Origin: a virus
Lineage: Duplodnaviria; Heunggongvirae; Uroviricota; Caudoviricetes
Virus record (IMG/VR): IMGVR_UViG_3300043105_000137
DNA: 64,000 nt
Reading direction: 5' to 3' (one strand)
Each line of letters begins with the position of its first letter. Positions within the stretch are counted from its first letter, which is position 1. The notes beneath the pieces are model-generated. The model was not told where the DNA came from, did not search any database, and saw nothing but the letters and a program-made list of their open reading frames with translations. Positions 977 to 40,311 of the stretch are shown in pieces. Both the position numbers and the translations under genes were made by a program.

Positions 977-1061
977 GGAGAGTAAACTTTTGAGGTAAAA
1001 GGACGGTCTGCTAAACCGATTGTACGAGTAATCGTATGTGGTTCGTGTCCACTGCTCTCCG
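977..1061 (+). tRNA. tRNA-Ser (anticodon GCT), type II
   Basis: The acceptor stem is ggagagt/gctctcc and the anticodon loop cugcuaa. The variable arm is long. Confidence 0.7.
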
Positions 1062-1249
1062 CATTAATACTAACCTTAAAATTTTCTACCTATGCGATTT
1101 GAAGATGTTACTTTTGAAAAACAGTTGAGAAACTTTACTGACTACCAAATTCGTCAGATGTTAAATGAACCAAATGTAAGTGAAGAAAGAGATTTTAATA
1201 ATTTACATCCTTGGTTATTCTGACCATACACAATATGTAAAACAAACAA

Positions 1250-6577: not shown

Positions 6578-7351
6578 ATGATTTTCCGAACCCTAAAAGA
6601 AAAATGTGAGTATTACAGAAGTCTGACTGATTATCGACTTCTTCCAAATGGTTACATTATGGTTATGATTGATGGTAAGAATTTTTCCACATTAATCAAA
6701 AACAAATTTGAGAAACCATTTGATGAGCAGTTTATTGAGATGATGAATAAAACTGCGAAGTATCTATGTAAGAATATCCAAAATTGTGTAGGTGCTTTTG
6801 TTCAATCAGATGAAATTAGTCTTGTCATTCGAGACACTAATGAAACCTGTGTACCCTTTGATGGTAGAATGTGTAAACTTTTGTCCATCATTCCCTCTAT
6901 TGCAACATCATACTTCACAAAGTTGATGATTGAATATGAGTTGAAACTTGTCCCCAGATTTGACCACATCTTTGAAATGAAAGATTATGTGTTCGACTGT
7001 AAGGTATGGGTTGTTCCTAATGAGAATGATATGTTAGCTTGGTTCTTATACCGTCAGATAGATTGTATTAAGAACTCAAAGAATCAGTTTTGTCAGACAT
7101 ATCTCTCACACAACACCCTGAGAGGACACAATTCAGATGAACAAGTTAAGTTGTGTTTGGAACAGACTGGAAATGATTGGAATTTGGTTTCTGATGATAA
7201 AAAGTTTGGTCGTTTCATCTACAAATCACAAGTAGTTAAAGTAAACCCAGAAGGACAGGAATATACCAGAAGTGTATGGGATATTGTTTCTTATGAGATT
7301 GCTAACAAAGAAAACAGAGAAGACTTAAAAAATAAATGGTTAAATAAATGA
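6578..7351 (+). CDS. Thg1-like protein (tRNA-His guanylyltransferase / 3'-5' nucleotidyltransferase family)
   Basis: The segments MVMIDGKNFSTL and AFVQSDEISLVIRD align with the Thg1 regions VVRLDGRNFHRF and AYGQSDEYSFVF that contain the catalytic carboxylates. Confidence 0.6.
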   Translation: MIFRTLKEKCEYYRSLTDYRLLPNGYIMVMIDGKNFSTLIKNKFEKPFDEQFIEMMNKTAKYLCKNIQNCVGAFVQSDEISLVIRDTNETCVPFDGRMCKLLSIIPSIATSYFTKLMIEYELKLVPRFDHIFEMKDYVFDCKVWVVPNENDMLAWFLYRQIDCIKNSKNQFCQTYLSHNTLRGHNSDEQVKLCLEQTGNDWNLVSDDKKFGRFIYKSQVVKVNPEGQEYTRSVWDIVSYEIANKENREDLKNKWLNK

Positions 7352-11218: not shown

Positions 11219-12493
11219 ATGAAACTAACATTCAAAGACATAGAAGATAAAGGACTTCTCTTATATCGTTACATAAGGGGTTCACAGGTCTATGGTACCA
11301 ATGTCGAAACAAGTGACGTTGATGAAGGTGGTATCTATATCGCTCCCTCAAATCAACTTCTTGACCTTGGTTTTGATTACCAGAATGAAATCTGTGATGA
11401 GAAACATGATACCTGTTGGTGGGAGATAGGTAAGTTCATGAGACTACTCCTATCATCTAACCCCACTGTATTGGAAGCCCTGTTCGTTCCTGATGATAAG
11501 GTCTTGTATGAACACCCCATCATTACGAATATCAAAAAGTATCGTGACCAATTCATCACCAAACAATGTTTCATGCCTTTTGGTGGTTATGCTGTGTCTC
11601 AGATTAAAAAGGCTCAGGGACAAGATAAGAAAATTCACTGGGACATTGAGAAGATGGTTAGAAAGACTCCCCTCGATTTTTGTTATACTTTTAAGGGACA
11701 GGGTAGTCAAAACATTCAAACTTGGCTCAGTGAACGAGGTCTTGACCAAAGTAACTGTGGATTGGTAAATGTGCCCAATATGCCTAATATGTTTGATGTG
11801 TTCTATGACTTTGGTCAACACATTGAACTAAATGGTATCACAAAAGAATTTTTCACCGACGAAAAAAATCGTAATGACAAATTCTTGAACTATGTATATA
11901 CAACTTTAACATCTAAATTTGACCAGACCGAAATGAAATGGTCTTGGGTAATGAAAAATCTTTATGAAAAAATTAAAACTCCTTTTGGTAAACACTGCGG
12001 TATCATTTCTAATGTGGGTTCAAGTAATGAAATCCGTTTTTCAGAAACATTAAAAGGTTCTACACCTATTTGTTATATGTCTTACAATGAAAATGGTTAT
12101 AGACAACATTGTAAGAAATATCGTGAGTATGAGGATTGGAAGAAAAACCGTAACAAAGCTCGGTATGAAAACAACCTTGAAGGACTCGAAAAAGAAAACT
12201 CAGCGAAGTTCTATGATGCTAAGAATATGTGTCACTGTTTCCGTCTGATTTCTATGGCGATTGAAGTAGCTAAGGGTGAAGGACTTAAACTTGACCGTAG
12301 AGGAATTGATGCTGATTTTCTCCTTGATGTTAGAAATAGAAAATATACTTATGATGAGTTGATGTCTAAACTAACAGAACTTAAATCTCAAATGGATGAA
12401 GAAATATCTAAATCTGTTATTCCTGATGAGATTTCTGTTGATATGGTAAATGACCTCCTGTTATATGCACGAAATAAATTCAACCAGAAATGA
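11219..12493 (+). CDS. Pol-beta-superfamily nucleotidyltransferase
   Basis: The N-terminus carries GSQVYGTNVETSDVDEGG, a match to the GS-x9-13-DxD nucleotidyltransferase signature. Confidence 0.5.
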   Translation: MKLTFKDIEDKGLLLYRYIRGSQVYGTNVETSDVDEGGIYIAPSNQLLDLGFDYQNEICDEKHDTCWWEIGKFMRLLLSSNPTVLEALFVPDDKVLYEHPIITNIKKYRDQFITKQCFMPFGGYAVSQIKKAQGQDKKIHWDIEKMVRKTPLDFCYTFKGQGSQNIQTWLSERGLDQSNCGLVNVPNMPNMFDVFYDFGQHIELNGITKEFFTDEKNRNDKFLNYVYTTLTSKFDQTEMKWSWVMKNLYEKIKTPFGKHCGIISNVGSSNEIRFSETLKGSTPICYMSYNENGYRQHCKKYREYEDWKKNRNKARYENNLEGLEKENSAKFYDAKNMCHCFRLISMAIEVAKGEGLKLDRRGIDADFLLDVRNRKYTYDELMSKLTELKSQMDEEISKSVIPDEISVDMVNDLLLYARNKFNQK

Positions 12494-30901: not shown

Positions 30902-31490
30902 CCAATTAAAGTGAATGAACTTTAAGAGTGTATACGATAGGTTGAAGTACCGCCGATTTTAAGCCTGTGGACTACCGAAAGTCAAGGTAGAATGAATCAG
31001 GAAGTTAATAGACAACACCTAAATTGTTTTCTTTTAACATACTATTTACTTGGGGAATGTGTCTTAACCTCAAGTTGGCTCGCGGAGAAATCTTATTGCA
31101 GTCTGTGATTGATAACTGAGGTTTTGAGGATGTGGGAAGTTGGAGGGGTATCCAACGAAAGACACAAATGGAAAAGATGAGACATAATACATCATCGTTG
31201 GGAAATGGGGATGTATTTATAATTTTGGGACTTCAAATTTAATTGTTGAAGTGAGGACTTTTTACTTATATTGATTGATTGATTAGATTATAGTTAATTT
31301 TTATTTTTTTTTTGAGAACGTAGAAATTCAATAAGTGAAGTCCCGAAAATCCTAAACAAGTTTTCACTTCACAACAAAAGGGGAAAATAGATGGTGATTA
31401 TTAATGGTTGTTGTGAAACAACCATTAATTTTTTTGAAAAAGCCGTTGGGAGAAACAATCCCAACACTACATATACAAAATAAACGTTAT
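30902..31490 (+). ncRNA. Candidate non-coding transcript, function unknown
   Basis: There is no ORF longer than 60 aa on the + strand. Two class-2 motifs lie just upstream and multiple hairpins (for example acttcaa...ttgaagt, gtgaagt...acttcac) are present. Confidence 0.25.
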
Positions 31491-33520: not shown

Positions 33521-35431
33521 ATGGCTTTTCTTCAAAACAAATTTATAGAAGATTATAAAACCGCCTGTCAAATACAAAAACTATATAAACAAATATATAG
33601 AATTTGTTATAAGATGGGCAACTATTATGTACCAAAAGGTAGTAGAATTGTTACTGTCACTTCAGATGATGGTACAACTCGACAAGTATATAGACCCGTA
33701 TATAACAATAGAATAATTGAGACTGATGGGTGGTATGATGGTAATGAAGATGTAAAAATTCACCCAAATGGTGTTAAATCAATATCTTTAACTCAAAATA
33801 CATATCTTACAATATCACAAATTGAAGATTTATATCTGTATAATAATATTATTCTTGCTAGTTATGATAGTACCACACAAAATGTTCCACAATATTTAAA
33901 AACAGGTGAGCTAAATGAGAAATTCAAATCTATATCTGTCGAAATACAATCATTATTATTCACATTGATTGATTCCGAAGCTCTAACGCCTTTTAGAACA
34001 TCATACACATATTATCCCGTAATGGATGCCAGATACCCCCATGTTCACTGGGCTTATGTTGCGATGAAAAATAATATGAATAAGTCACAAAGACGAATAT
34101 TCTATAACACTTGTATCGGTAAAACACTTCAAGAATATAAACGATTTACCACACACACATTTCCCAGAATATATAAACAACCTTGGGATAGTGGAACTTG
34201 GACACATACAGAGGATGAAACAAATTTGACCGATAGAGATAGAGTAAAAAAGAAAATGTATAAACAATGGTCAAGAACAGATTCAAGTGCTAACTATCTA
34301 ATTCTTAAAGCTGAGGAAGTATTAGAGAAATATGGTTGGCCTGAAGATGACCTTATTAAAACAAGTGAAGTCCCTGTTAGAATTGTTTTCTTTACAGGTG
34401 CGGGTATGAGTGAGGAAAATGGTATCTATACATATAAGAGTGAGGAAGAAGGTAATTTGTGGTATGAGAACCCTATTGATATGATAATGACAAAATCCGG
34501 GTGGAATTCTGACCCTGTTTTCTTGAATAGATTTTTTAATGAATTGAGAGCCAGTTACATTAATAAAAATACCATGCATCTTGGTTATCAAATTATAAAT
34601 AAATTCATTAATGATACTATTGGTGAAGGAACAAATAAACATAATACCTTTGATGTGAAAATCATTACTCAGAATATTGATGACCTACATGACAAAGCAT
34701 TATGTGACTATTTTTTTAGATATTATAACACGTCATATGAACCCCCGATATATGGAATTAGTGATAGTGGTTTTTATAAATATATGAAATTTACCAATAT
34801 TGGAAAATCTATGACAGCGAAAGAATTCATAGATGAACACCTTATACATCTTCATGGTAATTTAATGATTATGTGCAATGAAGATGATGTCGATAATACA
34901 AACTACCATGCTGACTTATCATATTGGACAAAAAGTGTTTCCGAAGATGATAACACAACAACAACAACATTGGCAGGAGTTTCAAAATATAAAAAAGTAA
35001 ATGGTAAGTATGTACAATCCGGAGTTGTAACAATAGACACAACAGAAAGTCATAAAGATTGTGGATTACCAACAGATGCTAAGGTTTGGACTTATTTCCC
35101 AAAAGTCAAACAGACATCAAATGGTAATGCAAAGATGAGACCTTGGATTACTCTATATCACGAAACCGTAAATAGAATGACAGAAGCTATCGAATTGGTT
35201 AGGTCTTGTGACATATTCGTAATGGTGGGAACTTCATTAGAAACTTTCCCCGCAGCCAATTTAATGACTTATGTTCCATCGACTACACCTATCATATATA
35301 TAGACCCAAATCCAAATACTGAAATGATAGAAAAACTAAAGATGACCAGTAGAACAGAAATAGTTAAAACATATGCACCAAATGGTCTTTCTCATGTGTT
35401 AGATGTATATCTTATGGGTTTGAAAATATAG
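33521..35431 (+). CDS. SIR2 (sirtuin-like) domain protein fused to an N-terminal domain of about 280 aa with no recognisable motifs
   Basis: Four sirtuin motifs appear in order: FFTGAGMSEENGI (GAGxS), TQNIDDLH (QNIDxLH), HLHGN (catalytic His) and VMVGTSLETFPAANL (GTSL..P). The canonical Zn-binding cysteine pairs are absent. Confidence 0.7.
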   Translation: MAFLQNKFIEDYKTACQIQKLYKQIYRICYKMGNYYVPKGSRIVTVTSDDGTTRQVYRPVYNNRIIETDGWYDGNEDVKIHPNGVKSISLTQNTYLTISQIEDLYLYNNIILASYDSTTQNVPQYLKTGELNEKFKSISVEIQSLLFTLIDSEALTPFRTSYTYYPVMDARYPHVHWAYVAMKNNMNKSQRRIFYNTCIGKTLQEYKRFTTHTFPRIYKQPWDSGTWTHTEDETNLTDRDRVKKKMYKQWSRTDSSANYLILKAEEVLEKYGWPEDDLIKTSEVPVRIVFFTGAGMSEENGIYTYKSEEEGNLWYENPIDMIMTKSGWNSDPVFLNRFFNELRASYINKNTMHLGYQIINKFINDTIGEGTNKHNTFDVKIITQNIDDLHDKALCDYFFRYYNTSYEPPIYGISDSGFYKYMKFTNIGKSMTAKEFIDEHLIHLHGNLMIMCNEDDVDNTNYHADLSYWTKSVSEDDNTTTTTLAGVSKYKKVNGKYVQSGVVTIDTTESHKDCGLPTDAKVWTYFPKVKQTSNGNAKMRPWITLYHETVNRMTEAIELVRSCDIFVMVGTSLETFPAANLMTYVPSTTPIIYIDPNPNTEMIEKLKMTSRTEIVKTYAPNGLSHVLDVYLMGLKI

Positions 35432-35645: not shown

Positions 35646-36224
35646 ATGATATTAGGAAGTCATAAATCATTAAGTTATATCACACCTAAGAAATGGTGGA
35701 TGTGGTTTCTTACTCCAATGTATAAACACCAAAGTAAGGACTTAGGACAACAACTCAAAGAAGGTATTAGAGTTCTTGATATTAATGTCCGATTTGATGA
35801 TCATGGTAATGTATCTGTCTGTGATGGGATATATGAAACCAAAAGTTATAATCCCAGAGTATTCACACTACACACTATTAATAAGATAGACAACTTTGGT
35901 GATAAAGATACCGATTATTACATCATTCTCACCCTCGATACAAAAAAGGCGTCATTAATACAAGAAGTGGAATTCATTAAACTATGTAAGGAATTCACAA
36001 GTAGATATTTTAGAAATAATGTTCACTTGCTTGGTTGTAGACGTAAGTTTGATAATGAGAAGGTATATGTTGGTTCACCTGATTTCACTGATATGTCTAT
36101 TATCTCAGCAACAGACCAAAAAGATTCTCGATGGTATGAGAAACTTATCCCTTGGTTCTATGCGAAACGAAAAAACGAAACTATTGAACCCACCTCAAAT
36201 GTAACCCTTTTGGACTTCATTTGA
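35646..36224 (+). CDS. PI-PLC X-domain-like phosphodiesterase (tentative)
   Basis: The segments ILGSHKSLSY and IRVLDINVRFDDHGN resemble the His-containing catalytic segments of the PLC-like phosphodiesterase fold. Confidence 0.3.
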   Translation: MILGSHKSLSYITPKKWWMWFLTPMYKHQSKDLGQQLKEGIRVLDINVRFDDHGNVSVCDGIYETKSYNPRVFTLHTINKIDNFGDKDTDYYIILTLDTKKASLIQEVEFIKLCKEFTSRYFRNNVHLLGCRRKFDNEKVYVGSPDFTDMSIISATDQKDSRWYEKLIPWFYAKRKNETIEPTSNVTLLDFI

Positions 36225-36227
36225 TTT

Positions 36228-36292
36228 TTAACAAAGTTTTAGCACTTAAAATTTGGAGATGTTATAAAAAACCTGTAACTTTGTAGTGTAAA
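36228..36292 (+). promoter_or_regulatory. Class-1 promoter cassette, copy 1 of 3 in tandem
   Basis: The sequence is TTTTAACAAAGTTTTAGCACTTAAAATTTGG...TAacTTTGtagtgtaa. Confidence 0.6.
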
Positions 36293-36325
36293 ACAAAAAG
36301 AACATTGAAAAGATGATTGAAAAAA

Positions 36326-36394
36326 GATTTAACAAATTTTTAGCTCTTAAAATTTGGTCAAGTCAAAAAAATCAAGTATCTTTGTAGTGTAATT
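36326..36394 (+). promoter_or_regulatory. Class-1 promoter cassette, copy 2 of 3
   Basis: A near-identical cassette. Confidence 0.6.
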
Positions 36395-36423
36395 AAAAAC
36401 AACATTACACAAGATGATTGAAA

Positions 36424-36494
36424 AAAGATTTAACAAATTTTTAACACTTAAAATTTGGTCAGGTCGAAAAAATCAAGTATCTTTGTAATGTAAA
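36424..36494 (+). promoter_or_regulatory. Class-1 promoter cassette, copy 3 of 3, with the conserved leader
   Basis: The cassette plus the leader AAAACAAAAACAAAGTTTAACTCTCTAAA lie upstream of the ATG at 36531. Confidence 0.6.
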
Positions 36495-36530
36495 ACAAAA
36501 ACAAAGTTTAACTCTCTAAAACAAGAAACA

Positions 36531-36863
36531 ATGAAAGGTTCAGTAATCGTAAATGGTCAGGTAATGACACAAGAAAAATATAAACAAGCAGTCATTACTA
36601 CCCTCGAAGAAAACAATAACAAATGGATGACTTGTGACGAAATGGTCGAGTGGGCATCTCACCACAACTTATGTGAACGTAAGAACGCATATCGAAAGGC
36701 AATGTCTCACCCCCTCTGGAAAATCATCTCTAACATGATGGAGGAAAAAAATCCGGTCATCACTCGAATGTCAAACATCAACAATGTTTTCATCTACAAG
36801 TTGAAAGTATCCAATGTCTATATTGACAAAAATGGTCGTCGTTGGGTACGTCGTCAAAAATAG
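36531..36863 (+). CDS. Hypothetical protein, paralog of 37892-38233
   Basis: Shares VNGQ..T...Y..AV...L..N.N.WMT..E...WAS...L.E.KNA.R.A.SHPLWKIIS.MM with 37892. Confidence 0.5.
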   Translation: MKGSVIVNGQVMTQEKYKQAVITTLEENNNKWMTCDEMVEWASHHNLCERKNAYRKAMSHPLWKIISNMMEEKNPVITRMSNINNVFIYKLKVSNVYIDKNGRRWVRRQK

Positions 36864-37103
36864 AGTTTTTTGAATTTGTTATATATAAATTGTAAAGAAC
36901 CTCACCGCAATTCATATCAAGAATTTATAAATGAAGTGTAATTATCTTAGGTTCTTGTTAATACAAAAATTAAAAGGTTATGGTACACATTAGATCACCT
37001 TTTGGAAGAGACATTCCTTCAATCTGACCGAGCTCTAAGATTGAAGAACCCCAAAGAGACGTCTTTGGTCTGGGACTTTTTCGCGAATAGTCCCTTCATG
37101 GAG

Positions 37104-37188
37104 AACTCAGTAAGTCTCAGTTGGTCGAGCTATGTTGAATTTCTTTATTGAAACCCATGCGACGAGGGTTCGAGTCCCTCCTGAGTTC
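37104..37188 (+). tRNA. tRNA-like element, possibly a degenerate or insert-containing tRNA
   Basis: The acceptor stem aactcag/ctgagtt pairs perfectly over 7 bp and the T-arm gaggg-ttcgagt-ccctc is canonical. The D-region and anticodon region are irregular (33 nt between the D-arm and T-arm), so it may be a pseudo-tRNA. Confidence 0.3.
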
Positions 37189-37272
37189 CTAAGAATTTTG
37201 TTGAAATGCTTTTTTATTACATTTTTTTCATATTACTATATTTTTAATATTATATAAGTTTTTGATTTAATT

Positions 37273-37292
37273 ATCATGTCGTGAGACATGAC
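37273..37292 (+). repeat. GTGA-tetraloop hairpin repeat, copy a
   Basis: The structure is tcatgtc-GTGA-gacatga. Confidence 0.5.
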
Positions 37293-37351
37293 CATAACAA
37301 ATGAGTTTTAATTGATATTTTTAAAGTTGTTTAAAATTTACACATTAAATA

Positions 37352-37379
37352 ATCATCATGTCGTGAGATAGACTGATTA
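37352..37379 (+). repeat. GTGA-tetraloop hairpin repeat, copy b (degenerate 3' arm)
   Basis: The sequence taatcatcatgtc-GTGA-gatagactgatta abuts the 5' end of the tRNA at 37380. Confidence 0.45.
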
Positions 37380-37452
37380 AACTCCGTAGCTCAGTTGGTA
37401 GAGCGTCTGGTTAAACACTGGAAGGTCGTGGGTTCGAGTCCCATCGGAGTTA
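37380..37452 (+). tRNA. tRNA with a non-canonical anticodon loop UUAAACA (nominal anticodon AAA with C37)
   Basis: The acceptor stem aactccg/cggagtt, the D-arm gctcagttggtagagc and the T-arm gtggg-ttcgagt-cccat are all canonical. The anticodon stem tctgg/ctgga contains two G-U pairs. Confidence 0.55.
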
Positions 37453-37471
37453 CTTTTTCATTTGATGCTTT

Positions 37472-37487
37472 TATGTCGTGAGACATA
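37472..37487 (+). repeat. GTGA-tetraloop hairpin repeat, copy c
   Basis: The structure is tatgtc-GTGA-gacata. Confidence 0.5.
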
Positions 37488-37583
37488 ACCATAGTAAGTG
37501 TTTTTTTTTAGTACATTATTTTTTTTTCATTGTATATAAGTTTTTGATTTATAAATAAATTATTTATTAAGTGAGAGAGAGAA

Positions 37584-37612
37584 AATCATCATGTCGTGAG
37601 ACATGATTGATT
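37584..37612 (+). repeat. GTGA-tetraloop hairpin repeat, copy d
   Basis: The sequence aatcatcatgtc-GTGA-gacatgattgatt ends 1-2 nt before tRNA-Lys. Confidence 0.5.
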
Positions 37613-37613
37613 A

Positions 37614-37686
37614 GGCTTCGTAGCTCAGTTGGTAGAGCAACTGACTCTTAATCAGTGGGTCGTGGGTTCGAGCCCCACCGGAGTCA
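37614..37686 (+). tRNA. tRNA-Lys (anticodon CTT)
   Basis: The acceptor stem ggcttcg/cggagtc contains G-U pairs. The anticodon stem-loop is actga-cucuuaa-tcagt and the T-arm gtggg-ttcgagc-cccac. Confidence 0.75.
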
Positions 37687-37747
37687 CAGAGTTTTTTACT
37701 AATTTTTTTAAATTATTCTTATAGAATTTAAATTTTTACACACAAAT

Positions 37748-37776
37748 AATCATCATGTCGTGAGATAGCATTGATT
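37748..37776 (+). repeat. GTGA-tetraloop hairpin repeat, copy e
   Basis: The sequence aatcatcatgtc-GTGA-gatagcattgatt abuts the tRNA at 37777. Confidence 0.45.
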
Positions 37777-37851
37777 GACTTCGTACGTCTCAGCTGGTAG
37801 AGCGTCTGGTTAAACACTGGAAGGTCGTGGGTTCGATCCCCACCGAAGTCA
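37777..37851 (+). tRNA. Second tRNA with the UUAAACA anticodon loop, with an irregular D-arm
   Basis: The acceptor stem gacttcg/cgaagtc pairs perfectly. The anticodon arm is identical to the one at 37380. The D-region carries 3 extra nt (tacgtctcagctggtagagc) and the T-arm is gtggg-ttcgatc-cccac. Confidence 0.45.
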
Positions 37852-37891
37852 CAAATTAAATTTATTGTAAAATTTCTAAAACATTAAAATC

Positions 37892-38813: not shown

Positions 38814-39448
38814 AAGATATAAATTTTAAGTTAGTCTTTTCAGGAAAGTTATCTTCTTGGACTGACGTTTTTAATATAATCGAACAAGCTGAAGATAACC
38901 ATGATGTTCGTTTCCTAATTAAAGTGGATGGAACAACATATAGTTATTTTTGGTGGAATGAATATACTAAATCTTGGAATATGTTTTTTTCGTATTTCAA
39001 GAATTATGAACTGAAATCAACAACAAAATGGCCTTATTATTGGTGGCCTGATGCCGTAGATGTTTATATGGTAACTGACCCGACGATTTTTATTCGTGAA
39101 CTTCAAAACGATTTACGACATGAGTCTTTCCAAAAATTAACTTATCCTGACTCTAAACTGAGTGTAATGGTGGATATGATTAAACCTATACTTGGCTCAG
39201 TGGTTGAAGTTAAAAATGAGAAAGTATTGTTGTTGGGATTGTCTTATACATTTGATGACTATTATTACTACTACCTGACACAAGATAATAAAATCGGTTT
39301 CACATCTTCGGTAGGAAAAATAGTTCAACATTATGACCAAACACGAGCTGAGTTATTGAAGGAGGACATTGAAACAAAACAACTTGTCCAGAACCTTAGA
39401 TGGGAACATTTCAAAGACGCTCCGGAAATAGAAATAATACACGTTTAA
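38810..39448 (+). CDS. Hypothetical protein
   Basis: A 212-aa Trp/Tyr-rich ORF. Confidence 0.45.
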   Translation: MKDINFKLVFSGKLSSWTDVFNIIEQAEDNHDVRFLIKVDGTTYSYFWWNEYTKSWNMFFSYFKNYELKSTTKWPYYWWPDAVDVYMVTDPTIFIRELQNDLRHESFQKLTYPDSKLSVMVDMIKPILGSVVEVKNEKVLLLGLSYTFDDYYYYYLTQDNKIGFTSSVGKIVQHYDQTRAELLKEDIETKQLVQNLRWEHFKDAPEIEIIHV

Positions 39449-39450
39449 TT

Positions 39451-40311
39451 ATGATAACATTTGTTTTAATTATCTTAGCAATTTTAATACTTCCTTATAT
39501 CCTTCATTTTTTGGGATTGGAAATATCAGAGTATTACAGAAAGAAATATAATGATCGTGAACTGGTCAAGGAATTCAAAAACTATCGAGGTTATATTGGA
39601 TTTTATAACAACCCCAGTCTTATGATTTATTATACACATCATGGAGTTTATACCGACTGTAAATGGGCTCACAAAATTCTAATCTATTTTGGTGGTTGTG
39701 TCTTGTGTTGGCAATGGGGTAATGACTTCAATGAGAATACAGGTCTTGACTATGCTTCTATTTCATACTCTTGGGGTTGGGATTCTATCAATGGTGAAAA
39801 ATGGTGGACTGATTTTAGATGGCGTAACCGTACTTTTTCTAACCCTTTCAAAGCAACCCACTATGATAACTCTTGGATAATCGACTTTAATAATAAGACG
39901 TTAGTTGAGAAAAGACAATTAGATGACATTAATGATTATCCTCTTGTTGATGTTAGATTGAATACCACCTACCGTATGAAGAATGACACAGTTCAAGATG
40001 TTTCCCGTATCCGTTGGTGGATTGAACAATGGGAATGGTCAGTGCCCTTCCTCAATAAAATAGGTCTTGGTAATTATTGTAAGAAAATAAATGTTGACCT
40101 CGAATTCCAATCTGACACTGAACTTGGCGTCAATCGGGATTCTTGGAAGGGTGGTGTAATGGGTGCCACTGTTAGAATTAGTGATGAACCCGAACTTCTC
40201 AAACTTTATCTCGACATCGTTAAACATCAGAAATTGGAGAAGATACCTCTACTCAGAACGGCTATCAAAAACCGTATCGACTATTTTATGAATGAAGAAA
40301 AAAAATATTGA
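39451..40311 (+). CDS. Membrane-anchored hypothetical protein
   Basis: The start was chosen at MITFVLIILAILILPYILHFLG, a transmembrane helix. The track start at 39400 overlaps the upstream gene. Confidence 0.4.
   Translation: MITFVLIILAILILPYILHFLGLEISEYYRKKYNDRELVKEFKNYRGYIGFYNNPSLMIYYTHHGVYTDCKWAHKILIYFGGCVLCWQWGNDFNENTGLDYASISYSWGWDSINGEKWWTDFRWRNRTFSNPFKATHYDNSWIIDFNNKTLVEKRQLDDINDYPLVDVRLNTTYRMKNDTVQDVSRIRWWIEQWEWSVPFLNKIGLGNYCKKINVDLEFQSDTELGVNRDSWKGGVMGATVRISDEPELLKLYLDIVKHQKLEKIPLLRTAIKNRIDYFMNEEKKY

What the first reader, a model, noticed from the sequence alone, without database searches (positions are those of the whole stretch)
37270..37780. Family of GTGA-tetraloop hairpins punctuating the second tRNA cluster
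Five copies of a 16-30 nt hairpin ((aatcat)catgtc-GTGA-gacatg(attgatt)) occur at 37273, 37352, 37472, 37584 and 37748. Three of them end within 0-2 nt of a tRNA 5' end and two sit in spacers. GTGA is a GNRA-type stable tetraloop. The regular placement suggests RNA processing, stabilising or termination elements for a polycistronic tRNA precursor. They could alternatively be repeated regulatory protein binding sites. The first tRNA cluster at 40-1904 lacks them.
Basis: seen in the sequence. Interest (0 to 1): 0.6.

Follow-up and report, generated by a model that had tools for sequence, protein, structure and literature searches.

The report
Repeated hairpins in phage tRNA array
Five copies of one small RNA hairpin sit beside three duplicated lysine-type tRNA genes in a very large Bacteroidota phage; they are real and conserved, but look like ordinary punctuation of a precursor RNA rather than a new kind of element.

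Summary
Five same-strand copies of ATGTCGTGAGA(C/T)A lie at 37274-37776. They occur nowhere else in about 84 kb of this phage, which includes 19 other tRNA genes.

They behave as hairpins in the + strand RNA:
- All five fold only on that strand, because of G-U pairs.
- Between two natural haplotypes the 14-nt cores show 0/70 substitutions, against 39/385 in the spacers.
- Stem changes are compensatory or G-U-type.

The "regular placement" is explained by tandem duplication of a hairpin-tRNA module. The three tRNAs are paralogues, and natural variants have deleted part of the array.

Positions of the five copies:
- Three hairpins end 0-1 nt before a tRNA 5' end.
- hp3 caps a two-tier stem followed directly by U9, so it looks like a terminator.
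- hp1 stands alone.

They are not a general tRNA-processing signal of this phage. They are not a known Rfam family or ribozyme, not a CRISPR-like repeat, and not a dispersed mobile repeat.

Best reading: cis-acting structures that define or protect RNA ends in a precursor made from three tandem promoters upstream. The apex is invariant in sequence, which leaves room for a specific binding factor. Searches for the same hairpin in other phages were inconclusive. Modest interest.

The parts
37274..37291 (+). hp1: free-standing spacer hairpin, UCAUGUC-GUGA-GACAUGA, 7 bp
   Evidence: -9.1 kcal/mol, z -3.1. In haplotype L027 the stem changes C-G to U-G and A.C to U-A.
37350..37379 (+). hp2: leader hairpin that abuts tRNA1. 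4-bp apex UGUC/GAUA, an internal loop, then lower stem AAUCAU/(A)CUGAUU(A)
   Evidence: The helix ends 0 nt before tRNA position +1.
37380..37453 (+). tRNA1: a Lys-type paralogue with anticodon loop UUAAACA (AAA, with C at position 37)
   Evidence: 58.8 bits. The paralogy is shown.
37459..37509 (+). hp3 composite: lower stem CAUUUG/UAAGUG (37459-64 with 37495-500), apical hairpin 37471-37488 (UUAUGUC-GUGA-GACAUAA), then U9 (37501-37509). It looks like an intrinsic terminator placed after tRNA1
   Evidence: MFE -10.1 kcal/mol. The L027 haplotype keeps the two-tier fold with CAUUUUG/UAAAAUG, a paired insertion.
37584..37612 (+). hp4: leader hairpin before tRNA-Lys(CUU), about 12 bp with one bulge. 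It is the most perfect copy
   Evidence: (-13.3 kcal/mol, z -4.3).
37614..37687 (+). tRNA2: tRNA-Lys(CUU), canonical
   Evidence: 70.2 bits.
37748..37776 (+). hp5: leader hairpin that abuts tRNA3. Same architecture as hp2, with a weaker fold
   Evidence: (-6.3 kcal/mol, z -0.8). Its leader is 81% identical to the hp2 leader over 42 nt.
37777..37851 (+). tRNA3: a paralogue of tRNA1 with the same anticodon arm and a 2-3 nt insertion in the D arm
   Evidence: 39.8 bits, Rfam only.
37103..37190 (+). tRNA-like element that heads the array. It has an acceptor stem, a T arm and a long anticodon-like arm, and no tool calls it a tRNA
   Evidence: (repeat families D3, D9). It is invariant among relatives.
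36227..36504 (+). Three tandem Bacteroidota-type promoters (TTTG N19-21 TAnnTTTG) inside a 101-nt repeat of 2.7 copies. This is the probable source of the precursor transcript
   Evidence: No further TAnnTTTG occurs until 38945.

Best explanation
The five elements are paralogous copies of one small RNA stem-loop. Its apex is 5'-UGUC-GUGA-GA(C/U)A-3', a GNRA tetraloop closed by a C-G pair. The copies fold in the + strand transcript of a roughly 1-kb non-coding array that holds one tRNA-like element and three Lys-type tRNA paralogues.

The array grew by tandem duplication of a module: spacer hairpin, then leader hairpin plus tRNA. That duplication produces the regular spacing. Selection has since kept the hairpins while the spacers drifted.

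The hairpins act in cis on the precursor RNA as structures that define and protect RNA ends:
- hp2, hp4 and hp5 fill the 5' leader up to 0-1 nt before the RNase P site. Cleavage would leave the upstream RNA with a nearly blunt, tetraloop-capped 3' end. The hairpin would also stop the AU-rich leader from mispairing with the tRNA.
- hp3 is the apex of a two-tier stem followed by U9. That makes it a terminator or 3'-end structure after tRNA1.
- hp1 is a free-standing copy.

Shown here: the copies exist, they fold only on one strand, they are under purifying selection, their stem changes are compensatory, and they are restricted to this array.

Inferred: co-transcription from the three tandem promoters at 36227-36504, the RNase P cleavage position, and the protective or terminating effect.
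For: - Five copies against a chance expectation of 0.6.
- The hairpin forms in all five on the + strand. On the - strand it fails for copies 2 and 5.
- Window haplotype against L027 haplotype: cores 0/70 substitutions, tRNAs 2/311, spacers 39/385 plus 112 gap columns.
- Stem pair 6 runs through C-G, U-G and U-A. Pair 8 goes from A.C to U-A. Overall 87.5% of cells are paired, against 53% or less when the partners are slid.
- The hp3 lower stem is preserved by a paired U/A insertion and is followed by a U-run in both haplotypes.
- Predicted pre-tRNAs keep the leader hairpin next to an intact cloverleaf.
- There is no host-type promoter and no canonical terminator inside the array, and three tandem promoters lie upstream.
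- The tRNAs and their leaders are paralogues.
Against: - No transcript data are available.
- Nineteen other tRNAs of the same phage do without the hairpin.
- Natural variants L030 and L031 have lost three of the five hairpins through recombination between tRNA1 and tRNA3. The element is therefore dispensable, at least in part.
- A purely structural role would not need the 11-nt apex to be identical in all five paralogues.
- A helix that reaches position -1 is expected to slow bacterial RNase P rather than help it (established knowledge of RNase P leader binding, not tested here).
- hp5 folds no better than shuffled sequence (z -0.8).
Confidence: 0.5

Rival explanations
1. The hairpin is a sequence-specific binding site in RNA. 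The apex UGUC-GUGA-GAYA would be read by a phage or host protein or nuclease. That factor would give this particular tRNA array its own regulation, processing or protection. The lower stems would only present the apex.
For: - The 11-nt apex ATGTCGTGAGA is identical in all five paralogues and in both haplotypes, while everything around it varies.
- The same apex is used in three different contexts: leader, terminator apex and free-standing.
- The exact 16-mer is somewhat commoner in viral contigs than two controls with permuted stems: 20 stretches, about 13 independent, against 2 and 7.
- The motif is multi-copy in a few unrelated contigs: L001, L004, L108, L117.
Against: - No candidate partner was identified. 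The neighbouring small ORFs have no RNA-binding annotation.
- The closest relative of the flanking gene (L036, 56% identity) has no copy.
- The enrichment in other phages rests on small numbers. Control 16-mers also land in two-tier hairpins.
Confidence: 0.22
2. The motif is a promoter or start element for a phage-encoded RNA polymerase. It could be hairpin-type as in N4, or T7-like with +1 at GUGAGA. Each tRNA would then get its own transcript with a 16-18 nt leader, and the type-A and type-B copies would act as tandem promoters.
For: - Conservation is asymmetric: the 5' arm, the loop and the first bases of the 3' arm are kept.
- The distance from the loop to tRNA position +1 is constant at 15-17 nt.
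- No host-type promoter lies inside the array.
- In unrelated contigs L037, L108, L117 and L135, TGTCG(T/G)GAGACA recurs 30-40 nt upstream of start codons.
Against: - The motif is absent from the other roughly 83 kb and roughly 100 genes examined, so it is not a general phage promoter.
- No RNA polymerase gene was seen in the window.
- Compensatory and G-U changes argue for pairing in RNA.
- Three strong host-type promoters already feed the array.
- The loop is 4 nt, not the 3 nt of N4 promoters.
Confidence: 0.1
3. The hairpins have no function of their own. They would be a relic, for example an old terminator, carried along when the tRNA module duplicated and kept similar by recency or by gene conversion.
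For: - The copies are clearly paralogous and local.
- The array is recombinationally unstable.
- Three of the hairpins are dispensable in natural variants.
Against: - Type-A and type-B copies share nothing but the hairpin, so the duplications are old relative to spacer decay.
- 0/70 core changes against 10% in spacers between haplotypes gives P of about 6e-4 (own calculation).
- Changes in the stems preserve or extend pairing.
- A 14-nt tract is too short for efficient gene conversion (general knowledge).
Confidence: 0.1
4. The element acts in DNA. The dyad-symmetric repeats would be iterons of a replication origin, operators for a dimeric repressor, or recombination sites.
For: There are five direct repeats with internal dyad symmetry in an AT-rich non-coding stretch. 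This arrangement is formally like the iterons of phage lambda's replication origin.
Against: - Two copies have lost the dyad but keep RNA pairing through G-U, which in duplex DNA, or on the other strand, is a mismatch.
- All copies are co-oriented with transcription.
- There is no GC-skew turn at 37 kb.
- The natural deletion junctions lie inside the tRNAs, not in the hairpins.
Confidence: 0.05

Closest known systems
Stem-loops in leaders and spacers of bacterial and phage polycistronic tRNA/mRNA precursors that act as exonuclease barriers or end structures, for example the hairpins left by RNase III cuts in T7 early RNA, and REP-type stabilisers
   Same: A short stable hairpin is repeated between the units of a precursor. 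It ends up at or next to a processed end. It sits on the transcribed strand only.
   Different: The stems are 7-13 bp, too short for RNase III. The cut that would expose them is the RNase P site itself. The apex is invariant in sequence. The element is confined to one paralogous array rather than used genome-wide.
Intrinsic (Rho-independent) terminators with GNRA tetraloops
   Same: This phage has a canonical terminator with a GUGA loop at 31400-31429 followed by T6. Its distant relative L036 has one right after tRNA-Lys. hp3 has a stem base followed by U9.
   Different: Four of the five copies have no adjacent U-tract. In hp3 the conserved hairpin is only the apex of a two-tier stem.
boxB hairpins of lambdoid nut sites
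   Same: Both are small hairpins with a GNRA-type fold in phage transcripts. In both, the sequence of the apex matters because a protein reads it.
   Different: Here the loop is a true tetraloop rather than a pentaloop. No boxA partner was seen. There are five copies in 500 nt. No N-like protein was identified. The host is Bacteroidota.
Theta (minimal HDV-like) ribozymes next to tRNAs of gut phages (PMC10879173)
   Same: Both are small RNA elements that abut tRNA genes of Bacteroidota or Bacillota phages and are thought to shape tRNA ends.
   Different: Theta ribozymes lie 3' of the tRNA and form a nested double pseudoknot. These elements are simple hairpins, mostly 5' of the tRNA. Rfam gives no hit, and no P1 partner exists downstream of the tRNAs (own inspection).
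Hairpin promoters of the phage N4 virion RNA polymerase
   Same: A 5-7 bp hairpin with a small purine-rich loop lies at a fixed short distance upstream of the RNA 5' end.
   Different: N4 promoter loops are 3 nt. They occur at several early genes and need a giant virion polymerase. Here the motif serves only one array and no such polymerase was seen.

Membership tests
Intrinsic terminator | A stable stem-loop followed immediately by a U-tract | tested here: inconclusive
   hp3: the base of a two-tier stem is followed by U9, and the fold is kept in both haplotypes. hp1, hp2, hp4 and hp5 have no adjacent U-tract. The terminator scan finds none on the + strand.
Theta / HDV-like ribozyme | The element starts within about 5 nt 3' of a tRNA and forms a nested double pseudoknot (P1, P1.1, P2, P3) | tested here: not met
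   Three copies are 5' of tRNAs. No HDV-family or other ribozyme hit appears at E up to 10. By inspection, the sequences after tRNA1 and tRNA2 have no P1 partner.
Any curated RNA family (Rfam 15) | A covariance-model match | tested here: not met
   Only tRNA reaches the gathering score. Nothing covers the hairpins even at E up to 10. The same holds for loci in other phages that carry the motif.
CRISPR repeat mimic (solitary repeat / RNA anti-CRISPR) | The same repeat forms arrays in bacterial genomes | tested here: not met
   The 18-mer TCATGTCGTGAGACATGA occurs in 14 stretches across 185,579 species genomes. All are single matches, with no arrays and none in Bacteroidota. I estimate about 17 by chance. 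A repeat that differs by even one base would have been missed.
RNase III processing site | About two turns (around 20 bp or more) of double-stranded RNA | tested here: not met
   The stems are 7-13 bp.
lambda-type nut site | A boxB hairpin with a GNRA-like loop | tested here: met
   The GUGA tetraloop sits on a C-G closing pair in all five copies.
lambda-type nut site | An adjacent boxA element and an N-type antiterminator | tested here: not met
   No conserved boxA-like block lies next to all copies. The 3' flank (A/C)CAUA is shared only by hp1 and hp3, and what follows it varies. No N-like gene was recognised.
N4-type hairpin promoter | A 5-7 bp stem with a 3-nt loop, used at several early genes by a virion RNA polymerase | tested here: not met
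   The loop is 4 nt. The motif is absent from the other roughly 83 kb. Whether a polymerase gene exists elsewhere in the genome of at least 352 kb could not be checked.
Dispersed mobile repeat (REP / MITE-like) | Copies scattered over the genome, in both orientations | tested here: not met
   All copies lie within 500 nt in one orientation.

The most novel reading that the evidence does not exclude
The invariant apex UGUC-GUGA-GAYA could be a specific tag read by a trans-acting factor. That factor would route this unusual Lys-type array, two members of which have a non-canonical AAA/C37 anticodon loop, into its own maturation pathway. For example, it could hold off RNase P so that 5'-capped tRNA-like decoys accumulate against anticodon nucleases. 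The array lies in a neighbourhood that looks like an anti-defence island and the phage also encodes Thg1-like and RlaP RNA-repair enzymes. The same 13-16 nt hairpin seen next to tRNAs, tRNA-like minihelices and gene starts in unrelated phages would then be the same tag.
Probability: 0.1. Interest if true: 0.65.

Novelty: new member of a known kind. Interest (0 to 1): 0.3.

Why it matters
Phage tRNA arrays are increasingly seen as counter-defence tools, so how their RNAs are matured is of interest. This case is a clean natural example. A small hairpin is kept by selection right at RNase P sites and at a terminator apex, but only in one duplicated Lys-type array of a phage that carries about 20 other tRNAs. 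If the hairpin merely caps RNA ends, it is routine. If its invariant apex is read by a factor, it would mark a private processing route for a special set of tRNA-like RNAs.

Tried and rejected
1. **Known RNA families.** Rfam at gathering score and at E up to 10 gave only tRNAs.
2. **Close or annotated relatives.**
   - GenBank phages have none; DNA hits are to tRNAs only, and the best helicase match is 34% identical.
   - The flanking 113-aa and 110-aa proteins have almost no homologues.
   - The one distant relative (L036) has a single tRNA-Lys followed by an ordinary terminator with a GUGA loop, and no copy of the motif.
3. **A wide family in other phages.**
   - Several of these sit in terminator-like or two-tier hairpins or next to tRNAs.
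   - However, only 3 of 119 unique sites lie within 60 nt of a called tRNA, against about 1 expected.
   - Controls with permuted stems gave 2 and 7 stretches and also land in two-tier hairpins.
   - The extended 18-mer in JGI metagenomes gave 11 chance-like hits.
   - Verdict: a modest excess that I cannot separate from the general abundance of C(GNRA)G hairpins.
4. **CRISPR-repeat mimic or host repeat.** No arrays were found in 185,579 genomes. Two hits in one Clostridium genome are an unrelated 79-nt tandem repeat whose loop varies.
5. **Shared partner protein.** An all-against-all BLAST of ORFs between the motif-bearing loci and the window found no protein shared with the window.
6. **Long-range pairing.** GGUUAUGG (36976) could pair with CCAUAAC after hp1. 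Both sides differ in haplotype L027, but they change to A.A, which is not compensatory.
7. **Microhelix mimic.** The 'hairpin + ACCA' idea for hp1 and hp3 fails because the CCA is ACA in one haplotype.
8. **Resemblance to 16S rRNA.** An 11-nt match to 16S rRNA (UGUCGUGAGAU) was recalled from memory. The Bacteroidota sequence differs, so I dropped it.

Full report
**What is there.** The stretch 36864-37891 is non-coding and lies between two small + strand ORFs. In order, it holds:
- a conserved structured segment and an uncalled tRNA-like element (about 36985-37190);
- hairpin hp1 (37274-37291);
- hp2 (37350-37379), which abuts tRNA1 (37380-37453);
- hp3 (37471-37488);
- hp4 (37584-37612), one base before tRNA-Lys(CUU) (37614-37687);
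- hp5 (37748-37776), which abuts tRNA3 (37777-37851, called by Rfam only).

The pattern CATGTCGTGAGACATG with up to 3 mismatches occurs five times, all on the + strand and all in this stretch. Chance expectation is 0.6, and 0 of 100 shuffles reach five.

Two details need correcting. The invariant block is ATGTCGTGAGA(C/T)A. And hp2 and hp5 have lost the outer part of the 3' arm: they keep a 4-bp apex with a G-U pair, an internal loop and the lower stem AAUCA/UGAUU.

**RNA or DNA, and which strand.**
- As + strand RNA, all five fold into the expected hairpin: -9.1, -7.6, -7.5, -13.3 and -6.3 kcal/mol, with z-scores from -3.1 to -0.8.
- As - strand RNA, hp2 and hp5 do not form it, because their G-U pairs become C-A.
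- With the downstream tRNA attached, the predicted precursor keeps the leader hairpin directly next to an intact cloverleaf, with 0-1 nt between the helices.

**Selection.** Look-ups with the flanking 113-aa protein returned near-identical contigs from other samples with a second haplotype of the array (L027, L033, L035). Differences between the window and L027 are:

| Region | Substitutions |
|---|---|
| Spacers | 39 of 385 aligned positions, plus 112 gap columns |
| tRNAs | 2 of 311 |
| The five 14-nt hairpin cores | 0 of 70 |
| Outer stem positions | 5 of 58 |

At the spacer rate, no change in 70 sites has a probability of about 6e-4 (own calculation).

The outer stem changes are the informative ones. 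In hp1, C-G becomes U-G and an A.C mismatch becomes U-A, through changes on both sides. In hp3, U-A becomes U-G. Across the eight distinct copies, stem pair 6 runs C-G, U-G, U-A. Overall 87.5% of cells are paired, against 14-53% when the partners are slid. This is a small data set of related sequences, so the covariation is supportive rather than decisive. Nothing in it contradicts the fold.

**Where the regularity comes from.**
- tRNA1, tRNA2 and tRNA3 are paralogues, 69-84% identical over 77 nt.
- The hp2 and hp5 leaders are 81% identical over 42 nt.
- hp1 and hp3 share their 3' flank (82% over 34 nt).
- A T-rich block plus TATATAAGTTTTTGATTTA occurs twice.

The array is therefore two units of [spacer hairpin ... 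leader hairpin-tRNA] plus one [leader hairpin-tRNA]. The placement next to tRNAs was inherited by duplication and does not amount to three independent observations.

The array is also unstable. L030 and L031 carry a deletion that fuses tRNA1 to tRNA3, in both haplotype backgrounds. It leaves one tRNA and two hairpins.

**Not a general tRNA signal.** The phage is very large: the 110-aa neighbour is on a contig of 351,880 nt. Cluster 1 at the start of the window continues upstream. L179 adds 15 more tRNAs and a tmRNA-like call, so ARAGORN tRNAs outside the array.

A covariance model of the hairpin, run without filters over the window plus L179 (84.6 kb), scores the five copies at 34-44 bits. Nothing else unrelated scores above 16 bits. 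A further 9.5 kb downstream (L181) and the distant relative L036 have none. Whatever the hairpin does, it is private to this Lys-type array.

**Transcription context.**
- The window has 15 matches to the Bacteroidota promoter pattern TTTG N17-21 TAnnTTTG, mostly just ahead of ORFs.
- Three of them sit in a 101-nt tandem repeat at 36227-36504, upstream of ORF 36531-36863 and the array.
- There is no TAnnTTTG between 36478 and 38945.
- The simple scan finds no + strand terminator in the array.

I infer one precursor that runs from these promoters through the array. This inference is not shown.

**hp3 is different.** Folding 37452-37512 gives a two-tier stem. CAUUUG (37459-64) pairs with UAAGUG (37495-500) around hp3, and U9 follows immediately. 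In the L027 haplotype the surrounding spacer is rearranged, with a 17-nt insertion. Even so, the lower stem is kept as CAUUUUG/UAAAAUG, an extra U matched by an extra A, and is again followed by a U-run. That is what a terminator or 3'-end structure after tRNA1 looks like.

The same phage uses a plain terminator with a GUGA loop at 31400-31429. L036 has one right after its tRNA-Lys. hp1 shows no such lower stem.

**Most likely mechanism.** The copies are cis-acting RNA structures that define or protect ends of the precursor.
- For hp2, hp4 and hp5, RNase P cleavage at tRNA position +1 would leave the upstream fragment ending in a nearly blunt, tetraloop-capped helix. That is a poor substrate for 3' exonucleases. 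The hairpin would also keep an AU-rich leader from invading the tRNA fold.
- hp3 terminates or caps the first unit.

These effects rest on general knowledge of RNase P and exonuclease behaviour, not on tests made here.

Two points cut against a purely structural role. The 11-nt apex is identical in all five old paralogues. And a helix that reaches position -1 should hinder rather than help bacterial RNase P. Both leave room for a factor that reads the apex (rival 1).

**Rivals.**
- A promoter for a phage polymerase would explain the asymmetric conservation and the fixed 15-17 nt distance to tRNA position +1. It is hard to square with the motif's absence from about 100 other genes, the G-U and compensatory changes, and the three host-type promoters already present.
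- A DNA-level role (iterons, operator) is contradicted by the strand asymmetry and the flat GC-skew trend.
- A functionless relic is contradicted by the 0/70 against 10% contrast.

**Other phages.** Exact-match scans of viral contigs found the 16-mer in 25 stretches and the 14-mer in at least 119. Some cases are striking:
- the motif at the apex of terminator-like two-tier stems (L003, L020, L008, L012);
- the motif a few bases after tRNA-Trp (L014) or after tRNA-like minihelices (L057, L037);
- two copies 42 nt apart (L001);
- TGTCG(T/G)GAGACA repeated 30-40 nt before start codons in L037, L108, L117 and L135.

The controls temper this:
- Only 3 of 119 unique sites are within 60 nt of a called tRNA, against about 1 expected.
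- Permuted-stem 16-mers give 2 and 7 stretches, against 20 (about 13 independent) for the real sequence. These controls also fall in two-tier hairpins.
- The 18-mer occurs in bacterial genomes at about the chance rate, with no arrays.
- The extended leader form is absent from JGI metagenome contigs.

I regard a cross-phage family as unproven.

**Verdict.** The element is best filed as a lineage-specific member of the familiar class of precursor-RNA stem-loops, with an unexplained sequence-invariant apex. Interest is modest.

Noticed in passing
window 37380-37453 and 37777-37851: tRNA1 and tRNA3 are paralogues of tRNA-Lys(CUU). Their anticodon loop is UUAAACA, which gives anticodon AAA with C at position 37. 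ARAGORN calls tRNA1 'Phe(AAA)'. RNAfold closes the arm to a 6-bp stem with a 5-nt loop. The phage already has a canonical tRNA-Phe(GAA) and tRNA-Lys(UUU). These two may not be decoding tRNAs. AAA is complementary to the UUU anticodon of tRNA-Lys.
   Followed up: partly
window 36985-37190: A tRNA-like element (acceptor stem, D-like arm, T arm, and an anticodon-like arm about 10 nt too long) is preceded by three conserved hairpins. Neither ARAGORN nor Rfam calls it. It is invariant across all related contigs, while the neighbouring spacers vary.
   Followed up: partly
window 36227-36504: A 101-nt tandem repeat of 2.7 copies, in which each copy carries a Bacteroidota-type promoter (TTTG ... TAnnTTTG). 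This gives three tandem promoters ahead of ORF 36531 and the tRNA array.
   Followed up: partly
window 6578-7351 and 11219-12493: The phage encodes a Thg1-family protein (a 3'-5' polymerase that repairs tRNA 5' ends; Pfam E 3e-29) and an RlaP-family RNA-repair nucleotidyltransferase (E 3e-19).
   Followed up: no
L030:451-1058 and L031:1-582 (aligned to window 36864-37891): Natural variants carry a deletion of about 420 nt made by recombination between tRNA1 and tRNA3. It is seen in both haplotype backgrounds. It removes tRNA-Lys(CUU) and three hairpins and leaves a hybrid tRNA with an A1.C72 mismatch.
   Followed up: partly
L179:3031-9106 (upstream of window position 1) and L181:18511-18960: The first tRNA cluster continues upstream with 15 more tRNAs and a tmRNA-like call with a tag peptide. 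A SmpB homologue is encoded about 8 kb beyond the window end. The phage may therefore carry its own trans-translation pair.
   Followed up: no
window 985-1068: This sequence looks like a tRNA-Ser(GCU) with a long variable arm, but neither ARAGORN nor Rfam calls it. It is preceded at 925-960 by a block similar to the TTTAGTACAT...TATATAAGTTTTTGATTT block of the second array.
   Followed up: no
window 33521-35431, 35646-36224, 39400-40311: The neighbours of the array are a Sir2-domain protein, a PI-PLC-X-like protein and an Acb3-like protein (a CBASS inhibitor family, E 3.5e-07). The setting looks like an anti-defence island.
   Followed up: no
L037, L108, L117, L135 (viral contigs): In these unrelated contigs TGTCG(T/G)GAGACA recurs 30-40 nt upstream of start codons and is preceded by GGTG-rich sequence. 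Both loops are GNRA. In L037 and L057 the hairpin follows a tRNA-like minihelix (acceptor stem plus T arm) by 2-3 nt. It could be a lineage-specific promoter or a 5'-UTR cap.
   Followed up: partly
L165:3660-3880 (Clostridium genome from a metagenome): A 79-nt intergenic tandem repeat contains GGTATCATGTC-(GTGA/GCCA)-GACATGATACC hairpins. It is a chance match to the 18-mer, and its loop is not conserved.
   Followed up: yes
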